A DNA stretch of 64,000 nt from a virus, in IMG/VR virus record IMGVR_UViG_3300013132_000023, positions 64,001-128,000 of that record; one strand, 5' to 3'. A model generated the notes under the pieces. The model searched no databases, was not told where the DNA came from, and saw only the letters and a list, made by a program, of their open reading frames with translations. Of the stretch, positions 13,355 through 61,917 are shown in pieces. The position numbers and the translations under genes are program-made. Each line of letters opens with the position of its first letter. Within the stretch, counting starts at the first letter, position 1.

Positions 13355-13884
13355 AGCTCAATCTTGCTAGCCACGGGGATGAGATCCCTGGATACATCAG
13401 TGTGGACTTCGATCACCCGACCGCTCAGGTGCGAGCGGACGTGACCGATCTTCCGTTTTCCGCCGAATCCGTTGACGAGATCTTGGCGTTTCATATCCTA
13501 GAGCATTTCCGTGCTGGGGACTATGAGCCACATTTGTCCAATCCACTCAATCCCAAAACGGCTAAGCAAGCTCTTGTGGAATGGCAAAGAGTTTTGAAGC
13601 CGGGTGGCAAACTACAAATCAAAGTACCTGATTTCGAAAAGATTGTTTGGCTCTATTACAATTTTCCACAATGGACAAGGGCTGAGTCTTCGGTTAACGC
13701 ACCATTTGGTAACTATTCTGATTGGATTGTATCTAATGGGCAACATCAGTGTCTTTTTAACAAACAAACCATGAAGAGACTGCTCGAAATGACTGGCTTT
13801 ACGCGTATTGAATTTGTTGACGGCGATCCTCAAGCGGTCGTTAGTCGTACTAATCTTGAAATGCATGTCGTGTGTTACAAATGA
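13351..13884 (+). CDS. Methyltransf_11-like SAM-dependent methyltransferase
   Basis: KLNLAS, LPF..ESVDEI.A.HILEH, RVLKPGG...I.VPD. Confidence 0.8.
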   Translation: MKLNLASHGDEIPGYISVDFDHPTAQVRADVTDLPFSAESVDEILAFHILEHFRAGDYEPHLSNPLNPKTAKQALVEWQRVLKPGGKLQIKVPDFEKIVWLYYNFPQWTRAESSVNAPFGNYSDWIVSNGQHQCLFNKQTMKRLLEMTGFTRIEFVDGDPQAVVSRTNLEMHVVCYK

Positions 13885-50063: not shown

Positions 50064-50273
50064 TTATAGAGTTTCATTTGGATCGATTGTGAAAATCGCC
50101 TCCGGGCACTTTAGCGATTCGCTATCGTCACCCTCGTAGTAACAAACGCCATAATCAAGGCTGTAACTAATGGTGGCATTTGGGTGCTTTTTAACGATCT
50201 TTTGAAGACGTTCTATCAGATTTGATATCTTGCCTTCAAAGTCATAGGCAGTGTATGTTTCTAAACGTCCCAT
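50064..50273 (-). CDS. hypothetical protein
   Basis: 69-aa ORF coupled to upstream ligase. Confidence 0.55.
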   Translation of the reverse strand: MGRLETYTAYDFEGKISNLIERLQKIVKKHPNATISYSLDYGVCYYEGDDSESLKCPEAIFTIDPNETL

Positions 50274-51388
50274 TAGTGATACTCCGTTCCGTCCTTGCGA
50301 GTTAGATAGTCGGGCGAAATGATCTTGAAAACCATACGCTTAGGGTGCGGGTCTAGTTCTCCCTTGCTCCACGTCAATTCGTCGTACATAGGACGAACGA
50401 CAATCCCTTCTCGAATGTGTCCATCTTCAAGGGTGGTGTTTCCTTGTGCCATTTCTAGCAGTGTTTCGTATGACAACATGCCACCACTCAAGAACGGCAC
50501 AAGCGGCAATCTTACCTTATTGCAAATGTGAGTTAGTGCATGATGATTGAGGTATTCACCATTGATAGCAATGTCGAATACACGATATCCCTTCTTGTTC
50601 TTGGCCCCGTAGTGCAGGTCTTGGACACCAGCACCATAGATTTCGCCAAAAACGATTAGTGAGTTCAGTGGACAACCAGTTCCGCCCTCTGGATTTTCAA
50701 TTGCATCGATAGCCCACTCAAGTAGCTTATCAAGTGCTTCGGCGTGTAGCTCGAAAGGAAGACCGTAGACTCCACAGTCGTTAGGGTCACGTTGCGTACG
50801 ATGTGTACCTACAACCTTTTCAAGGTAATCACTCATGCCTCCGTTTTCAGGATCAGGAGTACGTACCCAGCCAACACGGCTATTTGTACCGTGGAGCTTT
50901 TCAGTGACAACCAACGGTATGCTGTAATTAAGAGCTTCTGGGAAGTTACGAAGATTCTGCATATCCGTGTAATGATGGAACAACGGATGCTCTCTTCGCA
51001 TTTGACCAGCAGACATACCTAAGGGCGGCGGGGGCGGTTCGTACTTTTCGATACCGTAGTGAGCAGCTAGGCTCGCACCCGGTTCGGCTCCGCTGTCGTT
51101 AGGAACGAGGAAACCAAAGCTTGCAATACTACGCAAACGAGCGGCCCGGACGCGTCCCATGTCACTGTCCTTCTTAAAGGACAGGTATTGAGTCACGCCC
51201 CACTTATCGGCCCAATCGCGGGGAACCATAACTTCCGGAGGAATGTGTACTACAATGTCTCCAACCTTGTAGTTACCTTTTCCAGACACAATGTCCCAGC
51301 CGCTTACGCGGCAGATTTCAAGACGATCAGCATTGGGATGCGGATTGATAGCGGTCACAACGACCGGAGTGATGATTAGTTCGCTCAT
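50273..51388 (-). CDS. RNA ligase, DRB0094/Rnl5-like family
   Basis: N-terminal HPNADRLE OB domain, TEKLHGTN, FGEIYG, FDI, REGIVVRP, FKIISPDYL. Confidence 0.88.
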   Translation of the reverse strand: MSELIITPVVVTAINPHPNADRLEICRVSGWDIVSGKGNYKVGDIVVHIPPEVMVPRDWADKWGVTQYLSFKKDSDMGRVRAARLRSIASFGFLVPNDSGAEPGASLAAHYGIEKYEPPPPPLGMSAGQMRREHPLFHHYTDMQNLRNFPEALNYSIPLVVTEKLHGTNSRVGWVRTPDPENGGMSDYLEKVVGTHRTQRDPNDCGVYGLPFELHAEALDKLLEWAIDAIENPEGGTGCPLNSLIVFGEIYGAGVQDLHYGAKNKKGYRVFDIAINGEYLNHHALTHICNKVRLPLVPFLSGGMLSYETLLEMAQGNTTLEDGHIREGIVVRPMYDELTWSKGELDPHPKRMVFKIISPDYLTRKDGTEYH

Positions 51389-51906
51389 AGCTTTACAATT
51401 CTGCGTTCGTGGAGTCTAAGTCCTTCAACGTATTTATTTACAAAGTCGCGTTGTTCTGGCGTACACGGTGACCCCCGAGGGTCGTTGTGAGTAGTCATGA
51501 TTGATCGATAACGTCTCTTAACGAACAACGGAATCTTGCGGTCTAGTCGCATCGTTGATCTGCGGTATGAACGTCTATCTTCTCGTGGTCGTCTTTTCCA
51601 GAAGTGCTTAGCTACTTCAATTGAAGAATAAAAGTCGCCATATGCACTTGAATCCATTGTTTCGCTGTGACCGATGGGAATATCACAATCGTAGAAAATG
51701 ATTCCCCTCTCGTATCCAGTTTCATCTTGAGGGGCGTCGTAGAACACCCACTTAGATTCGTGTATATCAGTTTCAGGACTTCTTCGATAAATGACGTACG
51801 AGTAGCCAGTAATCTTGGTTTCGATCAATACGCCACCAAGAACCATATGCCAAATCGGAGTCTCTAAAGGACAGATTTCTTGGCTTGTGTTGTACTTGGT
51901 CTGCAT
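51385..51906 (-). CDS. hypothetical protein
   Basis: 173-aa ORF after consensus promoter. Confidence 0.6.
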   Translation of the reverse strand: MQTKYNTSQEICPLETPIWHMVLGGVLIETKITGYSYVIYRRSPETDIHESKWVFYDAPQDETGYERGIIFYDCDIPIGHSETMDSSAYGDFYSSIEVAKHFWKRRPREDRRSYRRSTMRLDRKIPLFVKRRYRSIMTTHNDPRGSPCTPEQRDFVNKYVEGLRLHERRIVKL

Positions 51907-51914
51907 GTCTCTCT

Positions 51915-51943
51915 ATAATAACACAAGAAGCCGCTCTTGTCAA
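51915..51943 (-). promoter_or_regulatory. sigma70-like promoter
   Basis: TTGACA-N17-TATTAT, 8 nt before ATG 51906. Confidence 0.7.
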
Positions 51944-51991
51944 GATCACCAACAGAGAATTTGCGTTTTACGTTCATTGTTTTGTTTGTAT

Positions 51992-52068
51992 TGGTGCCCA
52001 GGGCGGGAGTCGAACCCGCAAAATCTACATTCTAAGCGTAGCACGTTTGCCAGTTACGTCACCTGGGC
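51992..52068 (-). tRNA. tRNA-Leu(TAG), short variable loop
   Basis: GCCCAGG/CCTGGGC acceptor, loop CTTAGAA, GGTTCGACTCC, encoded CCA. Confidence 0.9.
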
Positions 52069-52077
52069 ATAGTATGT

Positions 52078-52106
52078 ATTGTATCACATTGCATCAAGAC
52101 TGTCAA
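52078..52106 (-). promoter_or_regulatory. sigma70-like promoter
   Basis: TTGACA-N17-TACAAT just upstream of tRNA-Leu(TAG). Confidence 0.75.
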
Positions 52107-52426
52107 GTCAAGGTCTCGGCAAGTTTGTTTGCGGCTAGCCAGCCGCGAGTAGTTGGCTCAAAGCGAGCAAAAGGACTGAACATGTACTTGTTTTCTGCAA
52201 AATGAGGATCAATTGACACTTGTCTCTTTAATGCAGCCATTGTTACGTTACGGTACAATAGGATTTTCCTGCCTTCGTAAGTTGTACAGTTTGGATACCG
52301 TATTTCTACAACCAAATTACCATAAATTTCAACAAATCGTATGATTTCGTAATGGTATGGATGTGGTTGAGAATTAGAAGACTGTCGAGAATCGTATGAA
52401 CTCGACGACATTTTGAACATTCCCAT
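52103..52426 (-). CDS. hypothetical protein
   Basis: YP.C..YEG.KIL...DPHF....SP.ARF.PT..GW phage family pattern. Confidence 0.65.
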   Translation of the reverse strand: MGMFKMSSSSYDSRQSSNSQPHPYHYEIIRFVEIYGNLVVEIRYPNCTTYEGRKILLYRNVTMAALKRQVSIDPHFAENKYMFSPFARFEPTTRGWLAANKLAETLT

Positions 52427-52435
52427 GTTTTTATT

Positions 52436-52521
52436 TGGTAGCTTCGGTGGGAGTCGAACCCACACGCTGATTAGGCACCTGATTTTGAGTCAAGCGGGTC
52501 TGCCAATTCCCCCACGAAGCC
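52436..52521 (-). tRNA. tRNA-Leu(CAA)
   Basis: GGCTTCG/CGAAGCT, loop CTCAAAA, long variable arm, CCA. Confidence 0.92.
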
Positions 52522-52740
52522 ATTCTGTTCAAGCAATTCTTCGGTCCCATCAGGATGCTCCAAATAGGCAAACCAAATTTTGCATCCCATCCTATTGAAG
52601 TGTTCTCTATTCCTGCGATGTGCTTCACGAGCTTCTGCTTCTGTTTTGCGAATCATCGGGTCTCCAGTATCGCGAGACGTGAACGTGTTACGGTGAATAC
52701 CCCACTTTACAGTCCATACTTTGTTCGGATCAACCTTCAA
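52471..52740 (-). CDS. hypothetical protein, C-terminus runs into tRNA-Leu(CAA)
   Basis: TTG start after GAGGT; stop codon inside tRNA. Confidence 0.5.
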   Translation of the reverse strand: MKVDPNKVWTVKWGIHRNTFTSRDTGDPMIRKTEAEAREAHRRNREHFNRMGCKIWFAYLEHPDGTEELLEQNGFVGELADPLDSKSGA

Positions 52741-52768
52741 TCATACCTCGCACATTAGGGTTTGTCAA
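52740..52768 (-). promoter_or_regulatory. sigma70-like promoter
   Basis: TTGACA-N17-TATGAT. Confidence 0.65.
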
Positions 52769-53238
52769 CTCTTGGGCTCGTATTTACAGATGATTGCATC
52801 TGGAAAATACGTCTCTATGATCTTGGAATAAATATCCCAATTGCCGCCACCCAGACCACAGCCCATTTTGTATGGAAAGTAGAATTGTCCATTCCAATAC
52901 TTGGATTCTGGATTTCTCCTTCGTGAATTTACAATTCGTTCAAATGCAGTCACGGTCGCGTCGTAGCTCGTCATGCGTTTCGTCCTTGAAACGTCGCCCT
53001 GGCCAAAAACGTTGGCAATTCTGATGGTTGGCGAAGCATTGAACATCCATACCCTGCCAATCAATTGCTCTTGACTAGTATCATATATTTGACAGTATTC
53101 ACGGTACTTGATTTCAAGTTCGGGCCATTTAAGAGCGAAGCTCCTAGCGATGCCGCCCCCCATGATGCCTCGACAATTGACTTGATGAAATAGAATGCCC
53201 TCTTCGAGGGCGAGCATGTCTTGTTCAATAATCTTCAT
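52765..53238 (-). CDS. macro domain (ADP-ribose-processing) protein
   Basis: HQVNC.G.MGGGIA, ANVFGQ, FPYKMGCGLGGGNW. Confidence 0.85.
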   Translation of the reverse strand: MKIIEQDMLALEEGILFHQVNCRGIMGGGIARSFALKWPELEIKYREYCQIYDTSQEQLIGRVWMFNASPTIRIANVFGQGDVSRTKRMTSYDATVTAFERIVNSRRRNPESKYWNGQFYFPYKMGCGLGGGNWDIYSKIIETYFPDAIICKYEPKS

Positions 53239-53245
53239 TGTATTG

Positions 53246-53334
53246 TGGTCCGCTCGGCAGGATTCGAACCTGCGATGGTGATTACTCACTCCAGATTAAA
53301 AGTCTGGCCCCTTCGGCCTCTCGGACACGAGCGG
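53246..53334 (-). tRNA. tRNA-Lys(TTT) with long variable arm
   Basis: CCGCTCG/CGAGCGG, CCAGA-CTTTTAA-TCTGG, 17-nt variable region, CCA. Confidence 0.85.
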
Positions 53335-53354
53335 CGGTTACTCATTGTACACTA

Positions 53355-53383
53355 AGTATAACACGCCGTAGATGTGCTGTCAA
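53355..53383 (-). promoter_or_regulatory. sigma70-like promoter
   Basis: TTGACA-N17-TATACT. Confidence 0.75.
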
Positions 53384-53384
53384 G

Positions 53385-53460
53385 TGGTACTTCCACCAGG
53401 ATTCGAACCTGGACGATTCGCTTAGAAGGCGAAGATGCTGGTCCGTTACATCATGGAAGC
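53385..53460 (-). tRNA. tRNA-Arg(TCT)
   Basis: TTCGC-CTTCTAA-GCGAA, canonical T arm, CCA. Confidence 0.92.
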
Positions 53461-53554
53461 ATATTATTCATTATCGATTACTCTTTGAGCTTCGTCTGCA
53501 AGAGATTGAAGAAAGGCAATATTATTCTTGGCTTTTTCAAGAGAGACTAGTTGT

Positions 53555-53643
53555 TGGTGCATCCGCCAGGATTCGAACCTGGGTTGGGTTTTCACCGTCC
53601 GATTAAGAGTCGGATGCCTTCGGCCAACTCGGCACACGGATGC
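53555..53643 (-). tRNA. tRNA-Lys(CTT) with long variable arm
   Basis: GCATCCG/CGGATGC, TCCGA-CTCTTAA-TCGGA, 15-nt variable region, CCA. Confidence 0.85.
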
Positions 53644-53648
53644 GTGAA

Positions 53649-53725
53649 TGGTCGGGCGTGTTGGAATTGAACCAACCTAATGTCCTCCTTCCAAGGGAGG
53701 CGACCCTCCTTGAGTCCGACGCCCG
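53649..53725 (-). tRNA. tRNA-Pro(TGG)
   Basis: CGGGCGT/ACGCCCG, CCTCC-CTTGGAA-GGAGG, CCA. Confidence 0.88.
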
Positions 53726-53733
53726 TTTTATGT

Positions 53734-53809
53734 TGGTCCGCAGCGATGGTATCGAACCATCTGTCTCTCGGTTATCAGCCGAGTGCATATACCTTTATGC
53801 TTCCTGCGG
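53734..53809 (-). tRNA. tRNA-Ile(GAT)
   Basis: CTCGG-CTGATAA-CCGAG; G:G mismatch at 7:66; CCA. Confidence 0.85.
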
Positions 53810-53838
53810 AATGTTTTAATAGTTCCAAGATTCTTCTT

Positions 53839-54435
53839 CTAGCTTCTTGGTAACGTTGGCGGTGCAACGTATCGCACAAGAAACCGCTTTGATTTTGCAC
53901 GAGCAATGTACTTCTTGGGTAGCTTAAAATCACCGTTGTTACGAATTACATTAAGCATGATTGCACGCAAACGTTGCTCCGGTTCATCGTACCGACTTCC
54001 CCATTCACCGGCTTGTTGAAGAAGATGATGAATTGATTCATCGTCATTTGGATCCATAACACAACATTCAAACGCCGATTCCATGAGTGTCATGTTGCGT
54101 TCTCCAAAGTACTTCTCAACACGAGGCCATATGTCGTAGTCTTTTGTTACAATTTCATAAACAGAGCACTTGTTCTCGATATTCACGAGAGATACAAAAG
54201 CCGCACCAAGAGCACACACCTGACATGTAGTCTTCTTGTTCTTCTTGAAGAAATCCTTGAACGATCCTGCGATCGTCTCATCATATGCACTCATGTCATT
54301 GCGTAACCATGAGTTTAGTTCAGGAGAATCCACTTGGACATACGTTCCAGGCGTTGCCTTGTAACGATTAAAACGAATCTGAGCCAGAACATCCTGGGCG
54401 ATCTTCACACACATCCGACGATTTCGACGAGTCAT
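53839..54435 (-). CDS. hypothetical protein
   Basis: 198 aa; IA.DVLAQ, CQVCALGA.F, E.AFE, RL.AIM.N.I.N.G.F pattern. Confidence 0.65.
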   Translation of the reverse strand: MTRRNRRMCVKIAQDVLAQIRFNRYKATPGTYVQVDSPELNSWLRNDMSAYDETIAGSFKDFFKKNKKTTCQVCALGAAFVSLVNIENKCSVYEIVTKDYDIWPRVEKYFGERNMTLMESAFECCVMDPNDDESIHHLLQQAGEWGSRYDEPEQRLRAIMLNVIRNNGDFKLPKKYIARAKSKRFLVRYVAPPTLPRS

Positions 54436-54462
54436 ATTTGTTGTTATTGTTGTTGTTATTGT

Positions 54463-54549
54463 TGGCGGAAGGTTAGGGAATCGAACCCTAGAGGCTTTTT
54501 ACACCCAGCCGTTTTCAAGACGGTTTCCTCGACCTACCGGACACCTTCC
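54463..54549 (-). tRNA. tRNA-Ser(TGA)
   Basis: GGAAGGT/ACCTTCC, loop CTTGAAA, long arm, G73, CCA. Confidence 0.9.
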
Positions 54550-55001
54550 AAATTTTTCACATCTGCTGGAAAGAGATACTTAGTGAGAACTTCACCAATC
54601 CCACGATCCAGAATAACCGCGAGCAGCTTGTTATGGTCTCCCTCAAACGGGCCGCTCATGAGTTGATCATACCACTTATACCAGTGTTCGTCAAGAACAA
54701 TCTCGACTGGCTGTCCTGGAACGTGCTCGAAATAGTCGGCATCGGTTTTAGGGGCAGCACGCACCTGAATAGTAATTCCGCTTTTACGAGAAGACTGGTC
54801 TTTTACCGGGACGATCTTGTCAATCGGCGGCAGTATGCCAATCCCAAGTGCGTCGTTAATGCGTTCAAACAAAGCCTCAAGAGGCGTTAACCCCTTTGTC
54901 ATTTCTTCTTTCGTGCGTTTGAATCGCTTGGCTCCAGTTACGGTCTTGTAGCTTTCGAGACAAGTGATTTGCTTTGCTTGTTCTTGCGTAATGTCGTTCA
55001 T
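54534..55001 (-). CDS. hypothetical protein sharing the TG..RF..KE domain of 49556..49921
   Basis: ITCLESYKTVTGAKRFKRTKEEMTKGLTPLEALFE; stop inside tRNA-Ser(TGA). Confidence 0.6.
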   Translation of the reverse strand: MNDITQEQAKQITCLESYKTVTGAKRFKRTKEEMTKGLTPLEALFERINDALGIGILPPIDKIVPVKDQSSRKSGITIQVRAAPKTDADYFEHVPGQPVEIVLDEHWYKWYDQLMSGPFEGDHNKLLAVILDRGIGEVLTKYLFPADVKNLEGVR

Positions 55002-55579
55002 TAAAAACTCCATCCCAAATTGATCATATACATTTCGCAATCCAACTCAGGATTGATGATGAAAATGTCTACGTCTTGATTGAAGAAGTGGCGTCGATAT
55101 TCGACTCCCACAAAGATGTTGTCTGTAAAGAACCAAGACGTACCAAAATTGACATATGGTGCGTAAGCTTGACCACGATCTTGCGGAGTGCCAGCGTAAC
55201 TCAAATCTACCTGAGTTTCAAGTTCAAACGAAGACATACCGCCGCTTGCCGACACTTGCCACGAATCCGTGACCATCCAGTTCTTTCGCAAACCCAAATA
55301 CACTTCTTGAACAGTGGTCTTTGTGCTGTCTACGCGACGATTGATATACACATCGTCATTTGACACGTCCTGGCTTTGCATAAAACCGAACTCAGGTCCG
55401 AAGCCATCTTTTCCAGCTAGGTCAATACTGCCACCCAGCACGTTCGTTTGCTGGTCAGTTGATTCCCAATCGCCAGAATCTTGAAAATCGCGAACGCCAA
55501 CCCCGACCTTCGCGTTAGGGGCCATGCGGCAGCTAGTGACAAGCGTAGCAAAAGTCAGAACAGAGAGTAAGTGCTTCAT
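55001..55579 (-). CDS. outer-membrane beta-barrel protein
   Basis: signal peptide ending LVTSC, amphipathic strands, VGVEYR, terminal INLGWSF beta signal. Confidence 0.75.
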   Translation of the reverse strand: MKHLLSVLTFATLVTSCRMAPNAKVGVGVRDFQDSGDWESTDQQTNVLGGSIDLAGKDGFGPEFGFMQSQDVSNDDVYINRRVDSTKTTVQEVYLGLRKNWMVTDSWQVSASGGMSSFELETQVDLSYAGTPQDRGQAYAPYVNFGTSWFFTDNIFVGVEYRRHFFNQDVDIFIINPELDCEMYMINLGWSF

Positions 55580-55586
55580 ATGATCT

Positions 55587-55614
55587 ATTGTACCACACGT
55601 TTGTTCGTTGTCAA
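55587..55614 (-). promoter_or_regulatory. sigma70-like promoter, near-leaderless
   Basis: TTGACA-N16-TACAAT, 7 nt before ATG 55579. Confidence 0.7.
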
Positions 55615-55623
55615 GAAAAAGTT

Positions 55624-55715
55624 TGGCGGTAGGTGTAGGATTTGAACCTACGGAGGTTTTAAAGCCCCGCTTCTTTAGCAAAGAAGTGCCTTAGGCCAGA
55701 CTCAGCCAACCTACC
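55624..55715 (-). tRNA. tRNA-Ser(GCT)
   Basis: GGTAGGT/ACCTACC, CTTCT-TTGCTAA-AGAAG, long arm, CCA. Confidence 0.92.
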
Positions 55716-55720
55716 AATTA

Positions 55721-55795
55721 TGGAGCCCCGTGAAGGATTCGAACCTGGACAAAGAGATTCAAAATCTCTGGTGCTAGCCGTTACACTATACCGGA
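55721..55795 (-). pseudogene. chimeric tRNA-Gln(TTG) with a foreign 3' end
   Basis: 5' TCCGGTA and T-stem CCAGG do not pair with 3' CCTTC-ACGGGGC-TCCA. Confidence 0.75.
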
Positions 55796-56269
55796 AATAA
55801 TCAATTGTTTCTGTGTAGGCCATACGTATTCCATTGTAGGGTCTTCGATCCAATTAAATTGACCGTAATAGACAGGATCTTTGCGAAGCAAGTTTGCACG
55901 ATGTGAAGCATGAAGCTCAGACAATCCAATCCAAGGCGGCATTTCAATGTTTGAAGAAATTGGTCCTGGTCGCATGGTGTTCTCGTATCCGCGATTAATC
56001 CATTCCGCAATAGCTTCATTCATATACGAACGTAACGCTTCATTATATCCACGCCACATAACTGCTGCCGGGTGATTTAACCATCCTTTTTTCAAAGGAC
56101 TGTTTTTCATAAAACCTTGATCAATACGCCATTGACGTTCAGTCAAAGCCCATTCATCGCCATTTACAATCAACAGTTGAAATGCTTCAACACGTTGTTT
56201 GCCGAGACGACGATAATCTAAACACGAAAGAGACTTAGTAAAGTCTGAAAAAGGAAGAAATGTTTGCAT
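55781..56269 (-). CDS. pyrimidine-dimer glycosylase-like (MSMEG_6728 family) protein
   Basis: MQTFLP, LD..RLGKQRVEA, NHPA..MW.GY, HASHR.NLLRKD, Y.WP. Confidence 0.85.
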   Translation of the reverse strand: MQTFLPFSDFTKSLSCLDYRRLGKQRVEAFQLLIVNGDEWALTERQWRIDQGFMKNSPLKKGWLNHPAAVMWRGYNEALRSYMNEAIAEWINRGYENTMRPGPISSNIEMPPWIGLSELHASHRANLLRKDPVYYGQFNWIEDPTMEYVWPTQKQLIISGIV

Positions 56270-56270
56270 A

Positions 56271-56483
56271 TTACATCTTGGTGATGCAACGATCAACACC
56301 CGTCAAAAACAAGGCAAGAATAATCACTCCTAGAATGATTGCCACAGGAATCCAAAGCGGGGCGAGCACCCACAGCCAAGGCCAGTTAATAATGTTGCCA
56401 AGCTTGAGGCCGATGAAAAGAATGGCCAATAGGCCAGTAAAGCCAACACCGCCCGAGCGAACTTTGATTTTTTGATTAGACAT
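56271..56483 (-). CDS. small membrane protein
   Basis: GGVGFTGLL.ILFI.LKL...I.W.W.WVLAPLW. Confidence 0.75.
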   Translation of the reverse strand: MSNQKIKVRSGGVGFTGLLAILFIGLKLGNIINWPWLWVLAPLWIPVAIILGVIILALFLTGVDRCITKM

Positions 56484-56528
56484 TGGATTGTGTTTAGGTT
56501 GAGGTTCAAGTTTAGTAGTAACAACCAC

Positions 56529-56556
56529 AGTATATCATGTCTCCTGGAGTTGTCAA
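56529..56556 (-). promoter_or_regulatory. sigma70-like promoter
   Basis: TTGACA-N16-TATACT. Confidence 0.7.
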
Positions 56557-56570
56557 GTGAAAATTAACGT

Positions 56571-56645
56571 TGGCGGGCCTACGGGGAATCGAACCCCGAT
56601 CTTCTATTCGACAGACAGATATTCTAGCCTTTGAACTATAGGCCC
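56571..56645 (-). tRNA. tRNA-Asp(GTC)
   Basis: GGGCCTA/TAGGCCC, loop CTGTCGA, G73, CCA. Confidence 0.9.
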
Positions 56646-56652
56646 ATTGTTT

Positions 56653-56727
56653 TGGTGCCTCCCCCAGGTAACGCTCCTGAGCCTCCAGTATTTCAAGCTG
56701 GAATGCAGACTTCTACACCAGGGAGGC
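56653..56727 (-). tRNA. tRNA-Phe(GAA), atypical T loop
   Basis: GCCTCCC/GGGAGGC, loop TTGAAAT, T loop AGCGTTA, CCA. Confidence 0.78.
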
Positions 56728-56801
56728 GGATCTTCTAACAGGATAATGTTTCCGAGTCGCACGTCTCTGTGCTTCTGATGCTTTCGCCATGATTTTGTTT
56801 T

Positions 56802-56877
56802 TGGGGTGCCTAACGAGTATCGATCTCGTACCTGGAGATTCACATTCTCCCGTGCAGGCCACTACACTATAGACACC
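56802..56877 (-). tRNA. tRNA-His(GTG)
   Basis: G-1:C73, GGAGA-ATGTGAA-TCTCC, CCA. Confidence 0.88.
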
Positions 56878-56884
56878 GCTATGA

Positions 56885-56962
56885 TGGTAGCCACAGCGGG
56901 ATTCGAACCCAGCACTTTACAGATTTTAAGTCTGTTGACTCTGCCGATTGGTCTACGTGGCC
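56885..56962 (-). tRNA. tRNA-Leu(TAA), short variable loop
   Basis: GGCCACG/TGTGGCT, ACAGA-CTTAAAA-TCTGT, CCA. Confidence 0.85.
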
Positions 56963-56988
56963 ATAAGTTGTTTGTTTTCAAAGCTGTA

Positions 56989-57006
56989 CGCTATTCGCGA
57001 ATAGCG
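56989..57006. repeat. 18-bp perfect palindrome
   Basis: CGCTATTCGCGAATAGCG in tRNA spacer. Confidence 0.9.
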
Positions 57007-57013
57007 AATGTAT

Positions 57014-57105
57014 TGGTCCGCAGGGTGGGATTCGAACCCACGTATTTCGCATATCAGGCGATGACTGATCATAAATCAGGGGGCTTACCGCTAACCGACC
57101 TGCGG
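57014..57105 (-). tRNA. tRNA-Ile(TAT) with long variable arm
   Basis: CCGCAGG/CCTGCGG, loop TTTATGA, ~22-nt variable region with TCGC/GCGA stem, CCA. Confidence 0.8.
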
Positions 57106-57135
57106 AAAAAGTTTGCCCCCAGGACAAAGGAAGTC

Positions 57136-57270
57136 CTAATTGTACCTGATACGATCTTCACCTTCTTCTTCGAACCATTCTTCGGTCTCGAAGTCCTCGG
57201 CGACGACGCGGTAATCATACACTGCGTCCTCGTCCGTGTCAAGTGTTGTTTCGAAAGATTCTTCTTCCAT
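57136..57270 (-). CDS. 44-aa highly acidic protein
   Basis: MEEESFETTLDTDEDAVYDYRVVAEDFETEEWFEEEGEDRIRYN between two tRNAs. Confidence 0.55.
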   Translation of the reverse strand: MEEESFETTLDTDEDAVYDYRVVAEDFETEEWFEEEGEDRIRYN

Positions 57271-57275
57271 TGTAT

Positions 57276-57368
57276 TGGCTCCGAGAGTAGGACTCGAACC
57301 TACGGTGGGGGAATTTCTCCCCTTCGCATTAACAGTGCGATGCGTGCTACCAACTCCGCAACCTCGGA
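57276..57368 (-). tRNA. tRNA-Asn(GTT) with long variable arm
   Basis: TCCGAGG/TCTCGGA, TCGCA-CTGTTAA-TGCGA, GGGGA/TCCCC extra stem, G73, CCA. Confidence 0.85.
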
Positions 57369-57381
57369 ACGTTGTTGTTGC

Positions 57382-57454
57382 TTGCGAGACTAGGATTCGC
57401 ACCTAGGTTTCTCCGGTCAGAGCGGAGCGTACTAGGCTGCTGTACGATCCCGCA
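57382..57454 (-). tRNA. tRNA-Gln(CTG), CCA not encoded
   Basis: TGCGGGA/TCTCGCA, CTCCG-CTCTGAC-CGGAG, T loop TGCGAAT. Confidence 0.82.
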
Positions 57455-57461
57455 GTAAAGC

Positions 57462-57761
57462 TTATTCGTATACCGTGATAGTCTTTTGCCGAGCAATCAC
57501 TTCGCGGTAACCATTGAATTCGGCACCATGATACGACTGATACCAGCCGTCAACGCGAATCAGGACTTCTGTGTCGCCATTCTTGAAACGCCACACGGTC
57601 CAGTAATCAGACCCTTGGTCTTGGCCTCCGTAATGAGCAACACACTTTTCATCAAAACTCCATCCTTCCGGAATGGGCGAATCAAAATCATCGTCCAAAT
57701 AATTGGACAAAAGCTTCTCAGCATTTTTATCTAACCAATCACGTAGTTCTGCACTGATCAT
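57462..57761 (-). CDS. hypothetical protein
   Basis: YGG.DQG..YW.V..F......GWY.SY.G phage family pattern. Confidence 0.65.
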   Translation of the reverse strand: MISAELRDWLDKNAEKLLSNYLDDDFDSPIPEGWSFDEKCVAHYGGQDQGSDYWTVWRFKNGDTEVLIRVDGWYQSYHGAEFNGYREVIARQKTITVYE

Positions 57762-58609
57762 AGTTTTTTCCAGATATCGGATTCAAAAAACCGCTCGAAA
57801 ACCACATTGTCAAACTGCTTGACTATGTTCCAGTTGTCGATAGCGTACTCCCTAAGCGGACCATCGTCAAGAGTCGTACAGACTTTTTCGAGGGCACGCA
57901 TGTATGCAATACGATATGAGAATCGTGTTCCCTTAATGCGATTTGGAATGATAAATCTTTCCAACGCAATGACGTACGTTTCTTCACGAACGCATGCTTG
58001 TTTTAGTTCATCAGAAGCAGCGTACCATAGATCTATGTCGTACGCTGCCTTGGACATGTCTTTCTTTAGCTGAAAGTACGACGGCGTACCACCAACAATG
58101 ATCTTGTGAATGTCTTCGTGATTAAACACGCGGACAACTGCATCTTTGATAAATTCCTCATTTGTCATGTCTCCAAATGGATTTCTATGAGGAAAGTACT
58201 TTCTGGTTTCCGCCATGCGGCGACTAATGAATTCGCGATCTTCATCCGTGAAATCATGATCCAGAATTTGGTACTGAATCATGTGTTTCGTGAAATTAAA
58301 GTCACGATACATATGCGAACGTTTGATTGCAGCAAGGCCACGAGAACTACATACTTTGACTAAAAGTCTACCATCAGCTAGAGCAGTCTTGTCTGTTCCA
58401 TACTTCGATTCGATTTCATGATTAAGGAAGAAAGCATCGTTATGTAATTCGATGTTTCCAAACTTCCATGAAAAGACCTTGCGATCACATGTCTTTTGAA
58501 GCAAATTTTCAGCTTCAAAGTGAGACACGATCACATCCCAATCCTTAGGATTCTTGGGACGGTGTTCTGGATGCCAGATAGAAGTAGCTCGTGAACCAAT
58601 TAGCAGCAT
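57758..58609 (-). CDS. phage protein with nucleotidyltransferase-like N-terminus
   Basis: LIGSRA...DWD, IKRSH, HEDIH, EE.YV.ALER, KVCTT. Confidence 0.65.
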   Translation of the reverse strand: MLLIGSRATSIWHPEHRPKNPKDWDVIVSHFEAENLLQKTCDRKVFSWKFGNIELHNDAFFLNHEIESKYGTDKTALADGRLLVKVCSSRGLAAIKRSHMYRDFNFTKHMIQYQILDHDFTDEDREFISRRMAETRKYFPHRNPFGDMTNEEFIKDAVVRVFNHEDIHKIIVGGTPSYFQLKKDMSKAAYDIDLWYAASDELKQACVREETYVIALERFIIPNRIKGTRFSYRIAYMRALEKVCTTLDDGPLREYAIDNWNIVKQFDNVVFERFFESDIWKKL

Positions 58610-58617
58610 ATTGTTTG

Positions 58618-58688
58618 CAGGGGCATAAGGAATCGAACCCTAGTCTATCGCTTTGGAGGCGAGTATATTACCACTATACTATACCCCT
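58618..58688 (-). tRNA. tRNA-Trp(CCA), CCA tail not encoded
   Basis: AGGGGTA/TGCCCCT, loop CTCCAAA, G73. Confidence 0.85.
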
Positions 58689-58694
58689 ATGTTT

Positions 58695-58768
58695 TGGTAC
58701 CCATTGAGGGAATCGAACCCACGCAGCTACCTTGTAGGGATAGTGTTCTGCCATTAAACTAAACGGGT
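58695..58768 (-). tRNA. tRNA-Val(TAC), C at position 33
   Basis: ACCCGTT/AATGGGT, CTATC-CCTACAA-GGTAG, CCA. Confidence 0.8.
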
Positions 58769-58771
58769 ATA

Positions 58772-59011
58772 TTATTCGATTTCAAGAACTTCGCCACGCT
58801 TACCAGCTTCATGAGCTTCCTTCAAAAGCTCAACGATACCGTAACAATCGTTAAAATTCCTGCATAAATTATTGTCTTCTATTTCTCCGTTGTTTATGAT
58901 GGAGAAATACAAGACAATATCATAAACAACAAATACCCGTTTGTCGTTGATGTAGATTTCGATACAAGAAGTTCCATCTTCGCGATCTGTAATCTTTTCT
59001 TTGATTTTCAT
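58772..59011 (-). CDS. hypothetical protein
   Basis: 79-aa ORF in three-gene operon. Confidence 0.55.
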   Translation of the reverse strand: MKIKEKITDREDGTSCIEIYINDKRVFVVYDIVLYFSIINNGEIEDNNLCRNFNDCYGIVELLKEAHEAGKRGEVLEIE

Positions 59012-59274
59012 AGTTCAATTCCTGAGTTCTTGCAAAATTCCAGATACTCTTGACTTGGAGCACCAAGTTCATACACAGATCCAGAGTACGTTCGTGCCGT
59101 TCTGTTCTTCACGTCAATTTCCATCAAGGAAGATGATGTAATCCTATGACCCGCTGGGTAACGTGGGTGTCCGTAAACTTGACCAGTGAGCGACTTGAAT
59201 CGTCTTTCTGGAGCAGTGTATTCATTTACACCTGGAGAGTCTACGATACCCCAATCTTCAATTGCTATTTTCAT
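59008..59274 (-). CDS. hypothetical protein
   Basis: L.G.VYGHP....G..I.SS...T.SG..Y.LG.P pattern. Confidence 0.65.
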   Translation of the reverse strand: MKIAIEDWGIVDSPGVNEYTAPERRFKSLTGQVYGHPRYPAGHRITSSSLMEIDVKNRTARTYSGSVYELGAPSQEYLEFCKNSGIEL

Positions 59275-59465
59275 GATCTTTTCAAGATTTCATCTAGCTT
59301 GTCGAATGAAGGCACGCTTGAATTATGCCAACGATAACACAATGGACAGTAGTACGGATATCTATCGCAGTCCGCTTTTTGTGCGACTTGAAAAGAAGCG
59401 TATGCTCTTTTACTAAGACACATCCTGTGCTTCCTGAGTTTCTTGCGTTGACGATTCGAAAGCAT
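59271..59465 (-). CDS. small basic Zn-finger protein
   Basis: C..KR.Y...Y.CP.C..WH. Confidence 0.6.
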   Translation of the reverse strand: MLSNRQRKKLRKHRMCLSKRAYASFQVAQKADCDRYPYYCPLCYRWHNSSVPSFDKLDEILKRS

Positions 59466-59471
59466 GTTGTT

Positions 59472-59500
59472 AGTATATCCCTTGATGTCTAAGTTGTCAA
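59472..59500 (-). promoter_or_regulatory. sigma70-like promoter, leaderless
   Basis: TTGACA-N17-TATACT, 6 nt before ATG 59465. Confidence 0.75.
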
Positions 59501-59507
59501 GGAAAAA

Positions 59508-59583
59508 TGGAGCCGCCGATGGGACTCGAACCCATAACCCCCTGATTACAAATCAGGAGCACCACCAATTGTGCTACAGCGGC
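59508..59583 (-). tRNA. tRNA-Thr(TGT)
   Basis: GCCGCTG/CGGCGGC, CCTGA-TTTGTAA-TCAGG, CCA. Confidence 0.93.
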
Positions 59584-59586
59584 CTA

Positions 59587-59661
59587 TGGTCCTGGGTACG
59601 GGTATCGATCCCGTTTCTAGTCCTTGAAAGGGACTTATCCTAGCCACTAGACGAACCCAGG
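59587..59661 (-). tRNA. tRNA-Glu(TTC)
   Basis: CCTGGGT/ACCCAGG, AGTCC-CTTTCAA-GGACT, CCA. Confidence 0.88.
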
Positions 59662-59666
59662 TTGAA

Positions 59667-59987
59667 TGGTGGACACGGAGCGGTTTTTGTCATTGTGTTA
59701 AAATCCTAGATCGTCTGGACCTTCAAGCTTTGCCTTACCACAGCAAGATGCTTGAAGACTATGAGGGGAAACCCCGCAAAATCATTAATATTTTGCGAGC
59801 ACTCAAATTGTCCGTAATCACTTCCAGATACGTTCATCATCCCACTAGGTTACCCGGCTAATTACTTCCGAGTGTTTTGGTAGCTTAAAAGAGGGTGTAC
59901 TGTAGCCTATACATGCATGTTGTACACCATGGCGAGCAGTATCAAGCACGGAATTGTACTGCATAATCCGCTCTAAGCCTCTCCGTG
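59667..59987 (-). ncRNA. unassigned ~320-nt structured RNA ending in GUCC-ACCA
   Basis: terminal CACGGAG/CTCCGTG and GAGCGG/CCGCTC pairings plus at least five internal helices; no ORF of 60 aa or more. Confidence 0.65.
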
Positions 59988-60020
59988 AAGCGTTGTTCAT
60001 TCTTCTCTTTCAAGCTATTC

Positions 60021-60096
60021 TGGTGGAGAGCATGGGAATTGAACCCACCCCACGGACCTTGCAAAGGTCTGTCGCCACCTTGGTACATGGCCCCCC
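60021..60096 (-). tRNA. tRNA-Ala(TGC)
   Basis: GGGGGGC/GCTCTCC with G3:U70, loop TTTGCAA, CCA. Confidence 0.85.
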
Positions 60097-60098
60097 AT

Positions 60099-60177
60099 AA
60101 CAGCGATCACTTTAAGATTAACCCCTACAACTCACGCCCAGCATTACCTGATAGTAGGGATCTCAAAAATCGCTGTT
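60099..60177 (-). ncRNA. candidate ~80-nt rod-like RNA
   Basis: AACAGCGAT/ATCGCTGTT, TTTTGAGAT/ATCTTAAAG, CCCTAC/GTAGGG stacked stems. Confidence 0.45.
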
Positions 60178-60183
60178 GTTTTA

Positions 60184-60297
60184 TGGCCAGTCGTGTGGCA
60201 GACTGGTAAGCCTCGTTGTCTTTCTCTTTACAACGCAAGAGAGCCGAACTGCCCATGTGGCCAATCCCCTATCTCGTCGGCAGAAGCGTAGGGATAC
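60184..60297 (-). ncRNA. candidate 114-nt pseudoknotted RNA ending in GCCA
   Basis: begins right after the CCA of tRNA-Gly; ATCCCTA/TAGGGGAT, TCTCTT/AAGAGA with loop CGTTGT pairing to ACAACG, CCAGTC/GACTGG. Confidence 0.5.
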
Positions 60298-60375
60298 TGG
60301 AGTCTCTTGTGGGAGTTGCACCCACACCTTACGGCTTGGAAGGCCGATGTGCTATCTATTAAACACCAAAGAGAC
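60298..60375 (-). tRNA. tRNA-Gly(TCC)
   Basis: GTCTCTT/AAGAGAC, loop CTTCCAA, U73, CCA. Confidence 0.85.
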
Positions 60376-60380
60376 GTATA

Positions 60381-60466
60381 TGGTGCCAGCAGCAGGATTC
60401 GAACCTGCGACGCCTTTTGAGTCACGGTTTACAGCCGCGTGCCATCGACCACTCGACCATACTGGC
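60381..60466 (-). tRNA. tRNA-Tyr(GTA)
   Basis: GCCAGTA/TGCTGGC, loop CTGTAAA, long arm, CCA. Confidence 0.92.
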
Positions 60467-60477
60467 AATTGTACTGA

Positions 60478-60548
60478 CTCCCTTGGTGAGTGTTTCACTC
60501 ACGTCTCCATCTAACGCGGATGGTGTCTTACGCCTAAACGACAAGGAA
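60478..60548 (-). tRNA. tRNA-like gene with atypical anticodon loop CGCGTTA (nominal CGT)
   Basis: full cloverleaf: TTCCTTG/CAAGGGA, CCATC/GATGG, GTGAG/CTCAC; T loop TGAAACA; no CCA. Confidence 0.65.
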
Positions 60549-60551
60549 TTA

Positions 60552-60843
60552 AGTGTGCTGGGAATAGGTATATTCACCCAACTATGTCTTTTTCCAGACT
60601 GCTTACTTAAAAATAAGTAGCCCTATGACTTTCGATCTCCACTTGTGGTCTCGCTTTGATCGCTTTTCTTTAAAGTCAAGAAAACGTACGTCCACTGAAC
60701 GACACTTGACTTACATCTTAACCGATTTTTCAATTAGCCACTAATGTAGCTAGGTCGTTTTCATTTGTTAGGCTCACCGACTTACACGGCTATCCCTTTC
60801 GGGGTTTGGTTGCACCACCTACGCTTGCCGACCACAAGCTCGT
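60552..60843 (-). ncRNA. unassigned ~290-nt structured RNA at the head of the tRNA operon
   Basis: 10-bp long-range helix 60830-60839/60641-60650, CCC-GAAA-GGG, TAGCTAC/GTGGCTA, TTTTCTT/AAGAAAA and other stems; follows a promoter. Confidence 0.55.
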
Positions 60844-60849
60844 ACCACT

Positions 60850-60877
60850 ATTATACACCACTTTCGGTGTTCTGCAA
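60850..60877 (-). promoter_or_regulatory. sigma70-like promoter of the ncRNA/tRNA operon
   Basis: TTGCAG-N16-TATAAT with TG upstream of the -10. Confidence 0.65.
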
Positions 60878-60894
60878 CCAAAAATCTGGAAAAA

Positions 60895-61917
60895 CTACGA
60901 TTTCTTCGGTCGCTTGCAGTTTTTAGCGTGCTTCTTGCCACCCTTAGCCCCGCAGTACGTGCAGGCCGCACGCTTCGGAGTCTTAACAGCAACCTTCGGA
61001 GCATCAGCCACGTCGTCGTATTCATCCAGGGGACAGTCGCCGAAATCCAGGCCCATGTCTTCATCCAACTCAGGCACGTCGTCCTGGTACTCTTCGGGCT
61101 GGACGTTCACGGCAACGTACAGAGGTTCCTCCATGATTCGTTCGCAAATATCCACGACCTCGTAACGACACACGCGAAGCTTCTCGCAAGAATGGTCGCG
61201 AGGAACCGATACCGCATCACGAGGATTAACCTTAACAAGAACAAGCTTGCCATCGGAGCTAGCAAAGTCACTGGCGTACTTGTGCGTGCCAACGTGGAAA
61301 CCAGTTGAACAAGCTGCGTTCGTGTCGGGATCGACTTGTTCACGCGGCATTTCGTTCACAGAACCAATGCTGTTATCGAACGTTTGAGTATGACGATCCT
61401 TGAAGTCGCTCGTCAAGCCCTTGTACGCCATAAAACACCCATCGTGCGTGATAGGGAAGTTGCCGTGCTTGAGGAAGTCGTACAATTCGTTTCGCGAACG
61501 CTCATTCGGGTTCTCCATCAAGTTAGCAAGGAAACGAGCCAGCGGCTTATAAGGAAGCTGTTGTCGCACGAAACTGCTAATCGTGTCAGCAATCACGCTA
61601 TGCACTTGTTCGCCATTGTAGAACACTTCGCCATATTGGTTAACCGTCACGCCCTCAATTCGCTTTTCAAGCGAAGCCGGAATGTCGAGCAATGGATCAA
61701 GACGATCAGATTCATTATTAGTGAGACACGCTACAATTGCATTGTAGTTAGGATGCGTCTTGCCAATAGAATGCGTTCTGCCATTCCAGGCGATTGTGAT
61801 GTTTCCATCGTTCGTCATGATGAACTTAGGAGTCGGCTTTTCAGGCAGACCTACATCAATAAGAACTTCTTCTTGATTGATGCCAGTCAGTCGTTTGATA
61901 ATGTCGAAGATACTCAT
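60895..61917 (-). CDS. rIIB: rIIB-like protein
   Basis: HPNY, F..NL..NP, ELY.FL, IT.DG.F.AYK, V..D....CS.G.HV, VKVNP.D.VSVP.D, K.RVCRY. Confidence 0.9.
   Translation of the reverse strand: MSIFDIIKRLTGINQEEVLIDVGLPEKPTPKFIMTNDGNITIAWNGRTHSIGKTHPNYNAIVACLTNNESDRLDPLLDIPASLEKRIEGVTVNQYGEVFYNGEQVHSVIADTISSFVRQQLPYKPLARFLANLMENPNERSRNELYDFLKHGNFPITHDGCFMAYKGLTSDFKDRHTQTFDNSIGSVNEMPREQVDPDTNAACSTGFHVGTHKYASDFASSDGKLVLVKVNPRDAVSVPRDHSCEKLRVCRYEVVDICERIMEEPLYVAVNVQPEEYQDDVPELDEDMGLDFGDCPLDEYDDVADAPKVAVKTPKRAACTYCGAKGGKKHAKNCKRPKKS

What the first reader, a model, noticed from the sequence alone, without database searches (positions are those of the whole stretch)
59667..59987. ~320-nt ornate RNA with a tRNA-Ala/tmRNA-like 3' end but no T loop
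Seen: 3' end CCGCTC-CGTGTCC-ACCA (U70, A73). Its T-stem-like strand pairs with GAGCGG about 290 nt upstream (59968-73/59678-83), with alternative CACGGAG/CTCCGTG pairing (59981-87/59674-80). Internal helices lie at 59936-41/59957-62, 59894-900/59922-28, 59775-82/59790-97 and 59721-28/59750-57, plus nested CACTCGG/TTGAGTG, GTAATTA/TGATTAC, CCGGGTA/TATCTGG. It lacks the GGGG 5' end, TTCRA loop and an obvious tag ORF of tmRNA. Inference: a new CCA-terminated RNA, a highly derived tmRNA piece, or an intron-like insert in a T loop.
Basis: partly seen in the sequence, partly recalled or inferred. Interest (0 to 1): 0.8.

Follow-up and report, generated by a model that had tools for sequence, protein, structure and literature searches.

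The report
Leftover tRNA-Ala end after unique spacer
The tRNA-like CCA end is the leftover 3' tip of a broken alanine tRNA gene, sitting at the end of a one-off non-coding spacer in a lake phage's tRNA cluster, so it looks like a recombination scar and not a new tmRNA-like RNA.

Summary
The window is part of a 137-kb lake-water phage record (rIIA, rIIB, RNA ligase). It carries 24 tRNA genes, all on the minus strand. The finding lies on that strand, between tRNA-Ala (60096-60021) and tRNA-Glu (59661-59587).

The 3' end, however, is not the end of a new RNA class. Window 59682-59662 matches 19 of 21 bases of the 3' end of an intact tRNA-Ala in a relative, L002, and the match includes the 5-base trailer after CCA. 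A second relative, L010, shows the same.

- **No matching 5' half, T loop or tag frame** exists.
- **The ~340-nt interior has no relative anywhere I could search**.
- **It scores as non-coding**.
- **It folds only moderately better than shuffles**, z = -2.6.

My best reading is a recombination scar plus a lineage-specific operon spacer. I cannot exclude a stable RNA like T4 RNAC/RNAD that reuses the leftover end. Interest is low.

The parts
60021..60096 (-). Intact but atypical tRNA-Ala(UGC), which I label 'type 1'. The acceptor is GGGGGGC/GCUCUCC with G3:U70, CCA is encoded and the trailer is GAAUAG.
   Evidence: ARAGORN. 86.8% identical over 76 nt to the tRNA-Ala of relative L006. The middle 41 nt are 40/41 identical to L002. 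Below Rfam's tRNA gathering score; the tmRNA model gives 15.7 bits.
59881..60017 (-). Spacer domain A. A 13-bp helix (60017-60005 / 59893-59881) encloses three hairpins and starts 3 nt after the CCA of tRNA-Ala.
   Evidence: Pair probabilities 0.86-0.99. z = -4.16 with 0 of 200 shuffles as good; plus strand -1.52. No relative found.
59814..59874 (-). Spacer domain B. A long hairpin of stacked 7-bp helices (GUAAUUA/UGAUUAC, CCGGGUA/UAUCUGG, optionally CACUCGG/UUGAGUG).
   Evidence: On its own z = -0.23, no better than shuffles. The extended form costs 4.2 kcal/mol and then leaves the leftover end unpaired.
59683..59813 (-). Spacer domain C interior. In the MFE, GGACA and GAGUG pair with the leftover end. 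Inside lie hairpins at 59797-59775, 59757-59721 and 59720-59703.
   Evidence: P = 0.88-0.99. Domain C with the leftover end: z = -2.85, 1 of 200 shuffles as good. A comparable terminal stem with a free ACCA arises in 5.3% of 150 shuffled upstream sequences.
59662..59682 (-). Leftover end of a 'type 2' tRNA-Ala gene: T-stem 3' strand CGCUC, acceptor 3' strand CGUGUCC (U70), A73, CCA and the conserved trailer UUCAA.
   Evidence: 19/21 identical to the L002 tRNA-Ala 3' end plus trailer. Aligned with L002 and L010 in A3. It is the only site in the 64-kb window within 3 mismatches, and 0 of 100 shuffles give any.
59587..59661 (-). tRNA-Glu(UUC), which begins 6 nt after the leftover CCA. RNase P cutting at its 5' end would define the 3' side of the spacer RNA.
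   Evidence: ARAGORN and Rfam. The processing step is inferred, not shown.

Best explanation
The stretch is a lineage-specific, non-coding spacer of about 340 nt in the phage's Tyr-Gly-Ala-Glu-Thr tRNA operon. Its last 21 nt are what remains of a second (or ancestral) tRNA-Ala gene.

A rearrangement with its breakpoint at the T loop removed or replaced the first ~60 nt of that gene. It left the T-stem 3' strand, the acceptor 3' strand (U70), A73, CCA and the trailer UUCAA in front of tRNA-Glu. An intact tRNA-Ala with a different acceptor stem and T arm now sits ~340 nt upstream.

The spacer is transcribed with the tRNAs. It is cut free when RNase P matures tRNA-Glu and when the 3' end of tRNA-Ala is trimmed. 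Most likely it is a processing by-product. Its hairpins, including the 13-bp helix, are ordinary spacer structure or nuclease sites.

Shown: the homology of the leftover end, the absence of a 5' partner, and the lack of tmRNA or tRNA features, of relatives and of coding signal. Inferred: the history of the rearrangement, co-transcription, processing and turnover.
For: 1. Window 59682-59662 matches the L002 tRNA-Ala 3' end plus trailer at 19/21. It is the only such site in the window, with 0 of 100 shuffles giving any. L010 has the same acceptor 3' strand, ACCA and UUCAA.

2. In L002 and L010 this 3' end belongs to a full cloverleaf. The two differ by compensatory changes in the anticodon and T stems.

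3. The window's intact tRNA-Ala has another acceptor and T arm, shared with L006, and another trailer. The leftover end keeps the trailer seen in L002 and L010, and nearly that of L006.

4. No 5' partner exists. The only other match of the L002 tRNA-Ala in the window is the intact gene.

5. The same array holds a tRNA-Gln(UUG) whose T-stem strands, CCAGG and CCUUC, cannot pair. I read this as a chimera joined in the T loop (sequence printed).

6. The interior has no relative. 21 of 50,697 phage records matched the query, all only under the flanking tRNAs. Also searched without success: 86 loci by blastn and nhmmer, 5 whole relative records, and single-sequence covariance models over 81 loci, where nothing but the self hit scored below E = 1.

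7. Spacers of this array are in general not alignable with relatives.

8. No promoter-like or terminator-like site lies on the minus strand inside 59667-60020.

9. The two minus-strand ORFs score -0.05 and +0.02 per codon. In-frame coding chunks score 0.28 +/- 0.13 and wrong-frame ORFs -0.14 +/- 0.14. Neither ORF is in the protein collection.
Against: - The leftover end is as well kept as the functional copies are between L002 and L010 (2 differences in 21), while all neighbouring spacer sequence has diverged beyond alignment. So either the break is recent or the end is under selection.
- In the MFE it pairs as 5 + 5 bp with a free ACCA (P = 0.95). One of its two changes against L002, G68 to U68, makes one of those pairs.
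- Domain A folds at z = -4.16 and the fold is strand-specific.
- The order of events cannot be rebuilt. The 5' acceptor strand of the intact gene also differs from type 2 at four positions, so a simple insertion does not explain everything.
- Only three relatives carry this tRNA-Ala family.
Confidence: 0.6

Rival explanations
1. It is a functional, stable small RNA of the tRNA operon, either the whole ~350 nt or the 147-nt 3' domain. This would be comparable in position to T4 RNAC and RNAD. It would have taken over the dead tRNA-Ala end as a tRNA-like minihelix (GGACA/UGUCC plus GAGUG/CGCUC plus ACCA), so that RNase P, 3' trimming and CCA repair give it defined, protected ends.
For: - Terminal 5 + 5 bp stem with a free ACCA at P = 0.95.
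- Good preservation of the leftover end and its trailer.
- Strand-specific stability: domain A z = -4.16 and domain C z = -2.85.
- No coding signal.
- T4 makes two small RNAs of unknown role from its tRNA region (PMC3014915, passage seen; PMC9697503, passages seen).
Against: - No relative by sequence or by structure model.
- A comparable terminal stem arises in 5.3% of 150 shuffles, and the mean pairing of the leftover end (0.83) is reached by 17% of them.
- An alternative fold within 4.2 kcal/mol leaves the end unpaired.
- 12% of background windows reach z <= -3.
- Pair 3:70 would be A-U, not G-U.
Confidence: 0.2
2. The interval encodes one or two very small proteins on the minus strand (59845-60000, 51 aa; 59706-59840, 44 aa). 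Other gaps of this array hold small genes in the same way.
For: Both frames are open with ATG starts. Nearby gaps hold small ORFs, of which the 79- and 88-aa ones are gene-called in public collections and score as coding (0.33 and 0.19).
Against: - Codon scores of -0.05 and +0.02 lie below the 5th percentile of in-frame chunks (0.053).
- Neither sequence is in the 15-billion protein collection.
- By my reading, the Shine-Dalgarno-like sequences are weak.
- No start/stop overlap of the kind seen in the 59465-58772 gene string.
Confidence: 0.07
3. It is a derived or two-piece tmRNA, or a tRNA whose T loop carries a ~286-nt intron. These are the first reader's ideas.
For: - U70, A73 and CCA.
- GAGCG at 59973-59969 could pair with CGCUC and lies about 47 nt after the CCA of tRNA-Ala.
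- A weak tmRNA_permuted hit (11.7 bits, E = 5.7) spans 59978-60048.
Against: - ARAGORN finds no tmRNA.
- The Rfam hits rest on the intact tRNA-Ala and are far below the 47-bit cut-off.
- No peptide frame ends in a tag-like Ala-rich tail.
- No local T arm and no SmpB in the record.
- The 47 nt before GAGCG match the relative's tRNA at 13/47, the chance level (my count).
- Forcing the GAGCGG/CCGCUC helix costs 14.1 kcal/mol.
- No group I or other intron family at E <= 10.
Confidence: 0.02

Closest known systems
tRNA gene fragments left by recombination or integration at tRNA genes (for example the displaced 3' ends at the borders of elements that integrate into tRNA genes; recalled general knowledge, no paper read here)
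   Same: An orphan copy of the 3' part of a tRNA gene (T-stem strand, acceptor strand, CCA and trailer) lies a few hundred bases downstream of an intact gene for the same amino acid. The break is in the T-loop region.
   Different: The interval is only ~340 nt and has no integrase, and there is no direct repeat beyond CCACCA. The intact gene's 5' acceptor strand also differs, so this is not a simple attL/attR pair. It lies in a lytic-type phage tRNA array, not a bacterial chromosome.
T4 RNAC and RNAD (small RNAs from the T4 tRNA region, role unknown; PMC3014915 and PMC9697503, passages only)
   Same: A non-tRNA stretch inside a phage tRNA operon, on the tRNA strand, that would be released by the tRNA-processing enzymes.
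   Different: The 'phages' search with this stretch matched only under the flanking tRNAs in 21 records, none a T4-type phage; whether T4 is in that collection I did not check. No expression data exist here, and no conservation even in the closest relative.
tmRNA (Rfam RF00023, and permuted RF04321)
   Same: An alanine-type acceptor 3' strand with U70, A73 and CCA, at a length of a few hundred nt.
   Different: No 5' GGGG acceptor strand, no T arm, no tag frame, no pseudoknot pattern recognised and no model hit.
Theta (minimal HDV-like) ribozymes next to phage tRNAs (PMC10879173; search listing and abstract only)
   Same: A structured element starting right after a phage tRNA 3' end.
   Different: No HDV-like family hit at E <= 10. 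Domain A is 137 nt and is closed by a plain 13-bp helix. I did not check the double-pseudoknot core by hand.

Membership tests
tmRNA | Recognised by ARAGORN or by Rfam RF00023/RF04321 at the curated score | tested here: not met
   none; best hits are 15.7 bits (on tRNA-Ala) and 11.7 bits, against a cut-off of 47.
tmRNA | tRNA-like domain with a paired acceptor stem (G3:U70) and a local T arm | tested here: not met
   No T arm outside called tRNAs. The only predicted partner gives A3-U70 in a 5-bp stem.
tmRNA | Internal tag reading frame ending in an Ala-rich degradation tail | tested here: not met
   Three-frame translation shows none.
tRNA with intron | Complete cloverleaf once the insert is removed | tested here: not met
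   No acceptor 5' strand, D arm or anticodon arm upstream. 13/47 identity of the candidate 5' part to the relative's tRNA (my count).
tRNA with intron | Recognisable self-splicing intron core | tested here: not met
   No intron family at E <= 10 in 59500-60300.
tRNA gene fragment (pseudogene or recombination scar) | Significant homology to part of an intact tRNA gene of relatives, on the same strand and in array context | tested here: met
   19/21 with L002, including the trailer. Unique in the window, 0 of 100 shuffles. Alignment A3.
tRNA gene fragment (pseudogene or recombination scar) | The rest of the gene is missing | tested here: met
Stable operon RNA of the T4 RNAC/RNAD kind | A discrete stable transcript processed from the tRNA precursor | not testable with these tools
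   No RNA run is listed among the 12 holders. The contigs laid are DNA.
Stable operon RNA of the T4 RNAC/RNAD kind | Conservation among related phages | tested here: not met
   Closer relatives known only from proteins P0003-P0005 could not be fetched.

The most novel reading that the evidence does not exclude
The phage has turned the dead 3' end of a tRNA-Ala gene into the handle of a new stable RNA. A 147-nt (or ~350-nt) multi-hairpin RNA would have its acceptor-like stem and ACCA tail matured and protected by the host's tRNA machinery (RNase P, 3' trimming, CCA repair). It would serve the phage as a decoy or regulator, and would be a documented birth of a non-coding RNA from a tRNA gene fragment.
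Probability: 0.12. Interest if true: 0.6.

Novelty: new member of a known kind. Interest (0 to 1): 0.22.

Why it matters
Mostly as a caution. In phage tRNA arrays a CCA-ended, alanine-type 3' end need not mark a tmRNA or a new RNA class, because it can be a piece of a broken tRNA gene. Together with the chimeric tRNA-Gln in the same array, it shows that these arrays are reshuffled by breaks at the conserved T loop. It also points to an unusual tRNA-Ala family with two interchangeable acceptor/T-arm versions. If the spacer RNA turned out to be stable, it would be a rare case in which the origin of a small RNA's tRNA-like end can be traced.

Tried and rejected
**Known RNA families.** Rfam at gathering score over the whole window gave 20 hits, all tRNA. 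At E <= 10 over 59500-60300 there were 6 hits, none inside the interior except the weak tmRNA_permuted hit that leans on tRNA-Ala. Region 55790-56580 gave 0 hits.

**Relatives of the interior.**
- The phage collection gave 21 records, all under the flanking tRNAs.
- The window's own 137-kb record has a single copy.
- blastn and nhmmer over 86 loci found only the leftover-end match to one contig, plus three 17-nt hits (E = 0.07) and one 25-nt hit (E = 0.88). These 86 loci are L002-L087, of which L002, L003, L005 and L008 are one contig.
- 5 whole relative records were searched.
- Single-sequence covariance models of domains C and A over 81 loci: the best non-self hits had E = 1.1 and 5.1.
- Four further pattern scans of viral contigs found either only the L002 contig or nothing.
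- The metagenome scan gave one 2.3-kb contig that ends at rIIB.

**Expression.** No RNA holder is listed. The DNA contigs of runs X2 and X3 carry the stretch without any difference, so they give no variants for covariation.

**Mobile element idea.** The 13-bp inverted repeat of domain A has no other copy in the window or the record. Its motif is not enriched: 13 matches against 8.8 expected.

**Other leftover tRNA ends in the array.** The ends of 60 tRNAs from the window and three relatives were searched against the spacers. This gave only short hits, and one at 56234-56219 proved not to be a tRNA.

**Not done.**
- I did not run protein homology searches on the 51- and 44-aa ORFs. The neighbouring real small genes are singletons, so a blank would have said nothing.
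- I did not check the theta/HDV core by hand.
- I did not see supplements of the papers.
- The literature search for 'species 1 RNA' found nothing.

Full report
**Setting.** The window is bases 64001-128000 of a 137-kb IMG/VR virus record, estimated 87% complete. DNA runs that hold it are lake-water metagenomes. It encodes rIIA, rIIB, an RNA ligase and a phosphatase-family protein. ARAGORN finds 24 tRNA genes, all on the minus strand, between 51992 and 60466. Rfam confirms 20 of them at gathering score and finds nothing else. The finding (59667-59987) therefore has to be read on the minus strand. It fills most of the 359-nt gap between tRNA-Ala(UGC) (60096-60021) and tRNA-Glu (59661-59587).

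**The observation.** The minus strand ends ...CCGCUC CGUGUCC ACCA at 59667, six bases before tRNA-Glu. There is no T arm: 16 T-arm-like hairpins lie in 51900-60900, all inside called tRNAs. No tag-like frame exists and no tmRNA call is made. At E <= 10 Rfam gives nothing inside the stretch. The one exception is an 11.7-bit tmRNA_permuted alignment that rests on the T arm and CCA of the neighbouring tRNA-Ala.

**What the 3' end is.** The closest relative I could fetch is L002 (rIIB 69% identical). It has a 75-nt tRNA-Ala(UGC) that ARAGORN and Rfam both miss but that folds as a cloverleaf.
- Its middle 41 nt are 40/41 identical to the window's tRNA-Ala.
- Its last 21 nt (T-stem 3' strand, acceptor 3' strand, ACCA, trailer TTCAA) match window 59682-59662 at 19/21.
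- In L002 the two matches abut. In the window they are about 350 nt apart.
- The 21-mer has one site in the window within three mismatches, and none in 100 shuffles.
- A second relative, L010 (rIIB 55%), has the same acceptor 3' strand, ACCA and TTCAA. Its T and anticodon stems differ from L002 by compensatory changes.

The window's intact tRNA-Ala carries a different acceptor stem and T arm. It shares these with L006 (86.8% over 76 nt), and it has a different trailer. So the CCA end is the 3' end of a second version of tRNA-Ala, and the rest of that gene is gone. No acceptor 5' strand, D arm or anticodon arm for it exists in the window. The 47 nt in front of the possible T-stem 5' strand GAGCG resemble the relative's tRNA at chance level, 13/47 by my count.

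**A parallel in the same array.** In the sequence printed its T-stem strands are CCAGG and CCUUC, which cannot pair. The 5' strand is the one used by tRNA-Lys(CUU) and tRNA-Arg of the array. This fits a join inside the T loop, the same place where the tRNA-Ala leftover begins.

**The interior.** It has no detectable relative in any of the following:
- the phage collection, where 21 records matched, all under the flanking tRNAs;
- 86 loci around rIIB homologues;
- five whole relative records, four of them 91-100% complete;
- single-sequence covariance models of the two best-folding domains;
- stem-only patterns.

This weighs little on its own, because spacers of this array in general do not align with L008, L010 or L006.

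The two minus-strand ORFs (51 and 44 aa) score -0.05 and +0.02 per codon. In-frame chunks score 0.28 +/- 0.13 and wrong-frame ORFs score -0.14 +/- 0.14. Neither ORF is in the protein collection, unlike 2 of the 4 other small ORFs looked up with them (the 79- and 88-aa ones). No promoter-like or terminator-like site lies inside on the minus strand.

**Structure.**
- The minus strand folds at -104.2 kcal/mol, z = -2.60. The plus strand gives -0.93.
- The ensemble favours three parts. The first is a 137-nt domain closed by a 13-bp helix. The second is a long hairpin. The third is a 147-nt domain in which GGACA and GAGUG pair with the acceptor and T-stem strands of the leftover end, leaving ACCA free.
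- The z-scores are -4.16, -0.23 and -2.85. I chose the domain limits after folding, and 12% of 51 background windows reach -3.
- When the upstream 338 nt are shuffled and the leftover end is kept, 5.3% of 150 shuffles give an equally tRNA-like end, and 17% pair the leftover end as fully.
- A fold only 4.2 kcal/mol above the MFE leaves the end unpaired.

The 'ornate' look is therefore real as base-pairing potential, but it does not clearly exceed what this genome gives elsewhere.

**Reading.**
- Most likely (0.6): a recombination scar at the end of a unique operon spacer that is made and discarded during tRNA processing.
- The main rival (0.2): the spacer, or its 3' domain, is a stable RNA that uses the leftover end as a tRNA-like handle. 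This would be comparable in position to T4 RNAC and RNAD, whose roles are unknown (PMC3014915 and PMC9697503, passages seen).
- In favour of the rival, the leftover end is as well preserved as functional copies are between relatives, and one of its two changes creates a pair in the predicted stem.
- Against the rival stand the lack of any relative and the shuffle controls.
- Small proteins (0.07) and the tmRNA or T-loop-intron ideas (0.02) are poorly supported.

**Limits.**
- Only three relatives carry this tRNA-Ala family.
- No RNA data exist.
- The labels 'type 1' and 'type 2' are mine.
- What I say about RNase P, 3' trimming and integration scars at tRNA genes is recalled textbook knowledge, not tested here.

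Noticed in passing
window 60021-60096 (-); L006 10989-11064; L002 7815-7889; L010 12594-12668: An unusual tRNA-Ala(UGC) family. It has C8-A9, a 3-bp D stem with a long D loop, and an A-C mismatch at the top of the anticodon stem. It comes in two acceptor/T-arm versions that share a nearly identical middle. The window copy is below Rfam's tRNA score and is picked up weakly by the tmRNA model. ARAGORN does not call the L002 and L010 copies.
   Followed up: partly
window 55721-55796 (-): tRNA-Gln(UUG) has T-stem strands CCAGG and CCUUC, which cannot pair, and an acceptor with mismatches. It looks like a chimera of two tRNA genes joined in the T loop. Rfam gives 29.4 bits, at the cut-off.
   Followed up: partly
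L006 11695-11772, 11192-11267 and 11372-11716: Between tRNA-Ala and tRNA-Glu of relative L006 lie three things: a CUA-anticodon (amber suppressor-type) tRNA, a 114-aa ORF, and an uncalled 78-nt tRNA-like element. The element has a 7-bp acceptor stem, a canonical T arm and ACCA, and it overlaps the ORF's 3' end.
   Followed up: partly
L002 7989-8047 and L010 12978-13036: A spacer element upstream of tRNA-Phe is conserved between two relatives (79.7% over 59 nt). Its hairpin stem changes in a compensatory way (GGAUGG/CCAUCU versus GACGG/CCGUC). It has no counterpart in the window.
   Followed up: no
L010 12785-12815 and about 13323-13400: An orphan T arm (GCUGG-UUCGAUU-CCAGC) without a recognisable tRNA around it, and an uncalled tRNA-Glu-like sequence with an odd T region right after tRNA-Phe.
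   Followed up: no
window 59472-59500 (-): A strong promoter-like site (TTGACA, 17 nt, TATACT; 11 of 12) lies directly after tRNA-Thr and in front of the string of small ORFs at 59465-58772. The 3' stem of tRNA-Thr followed by a U run also scores as terminator-like.
   Followed up: no
window 59979-59984 (-) versus 60025-60030 (-): GGAGAG in the spacer is complementary to CUCUCC, the acceptor 3' strand of the intact tRNA-Ala about 40 nt upstream. It could compete with the acceptor stem in the precursor, and it is what the weak tmRNA_permuted hit picks up.
   Followed up: no
window 60485-60498 (-): A 14/14 match to the 3' end of the L010 tRNA-Gln(UUG) lies inside the uncalled cloverleaf-like stretch that another reader noted at 60478-60548. 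That element may be a diverged tRNA-Gln relative.
   Followed up: no
G000:C1:133106-133184 and 133401-133475 (outside the window; L096 1501-1579 and 1796-1870, +): The record has two more tRNAs on the other strand, Met(CAU) and Thr(GGU), separated by a 216-nt spacer. The phage therefore does have a tRNA-Met, although the main array lacks one.
   Followed up: partly
window 50273-51388 (-) and 52765-53289 (-): An RNA ligase (phrog_968) and a phosphatase-family protein (phrog_335) lie at the far end of the tRNA array. By recall, this is the gene pair expected of a T4-like tRNA repair system.
   Followed up: no
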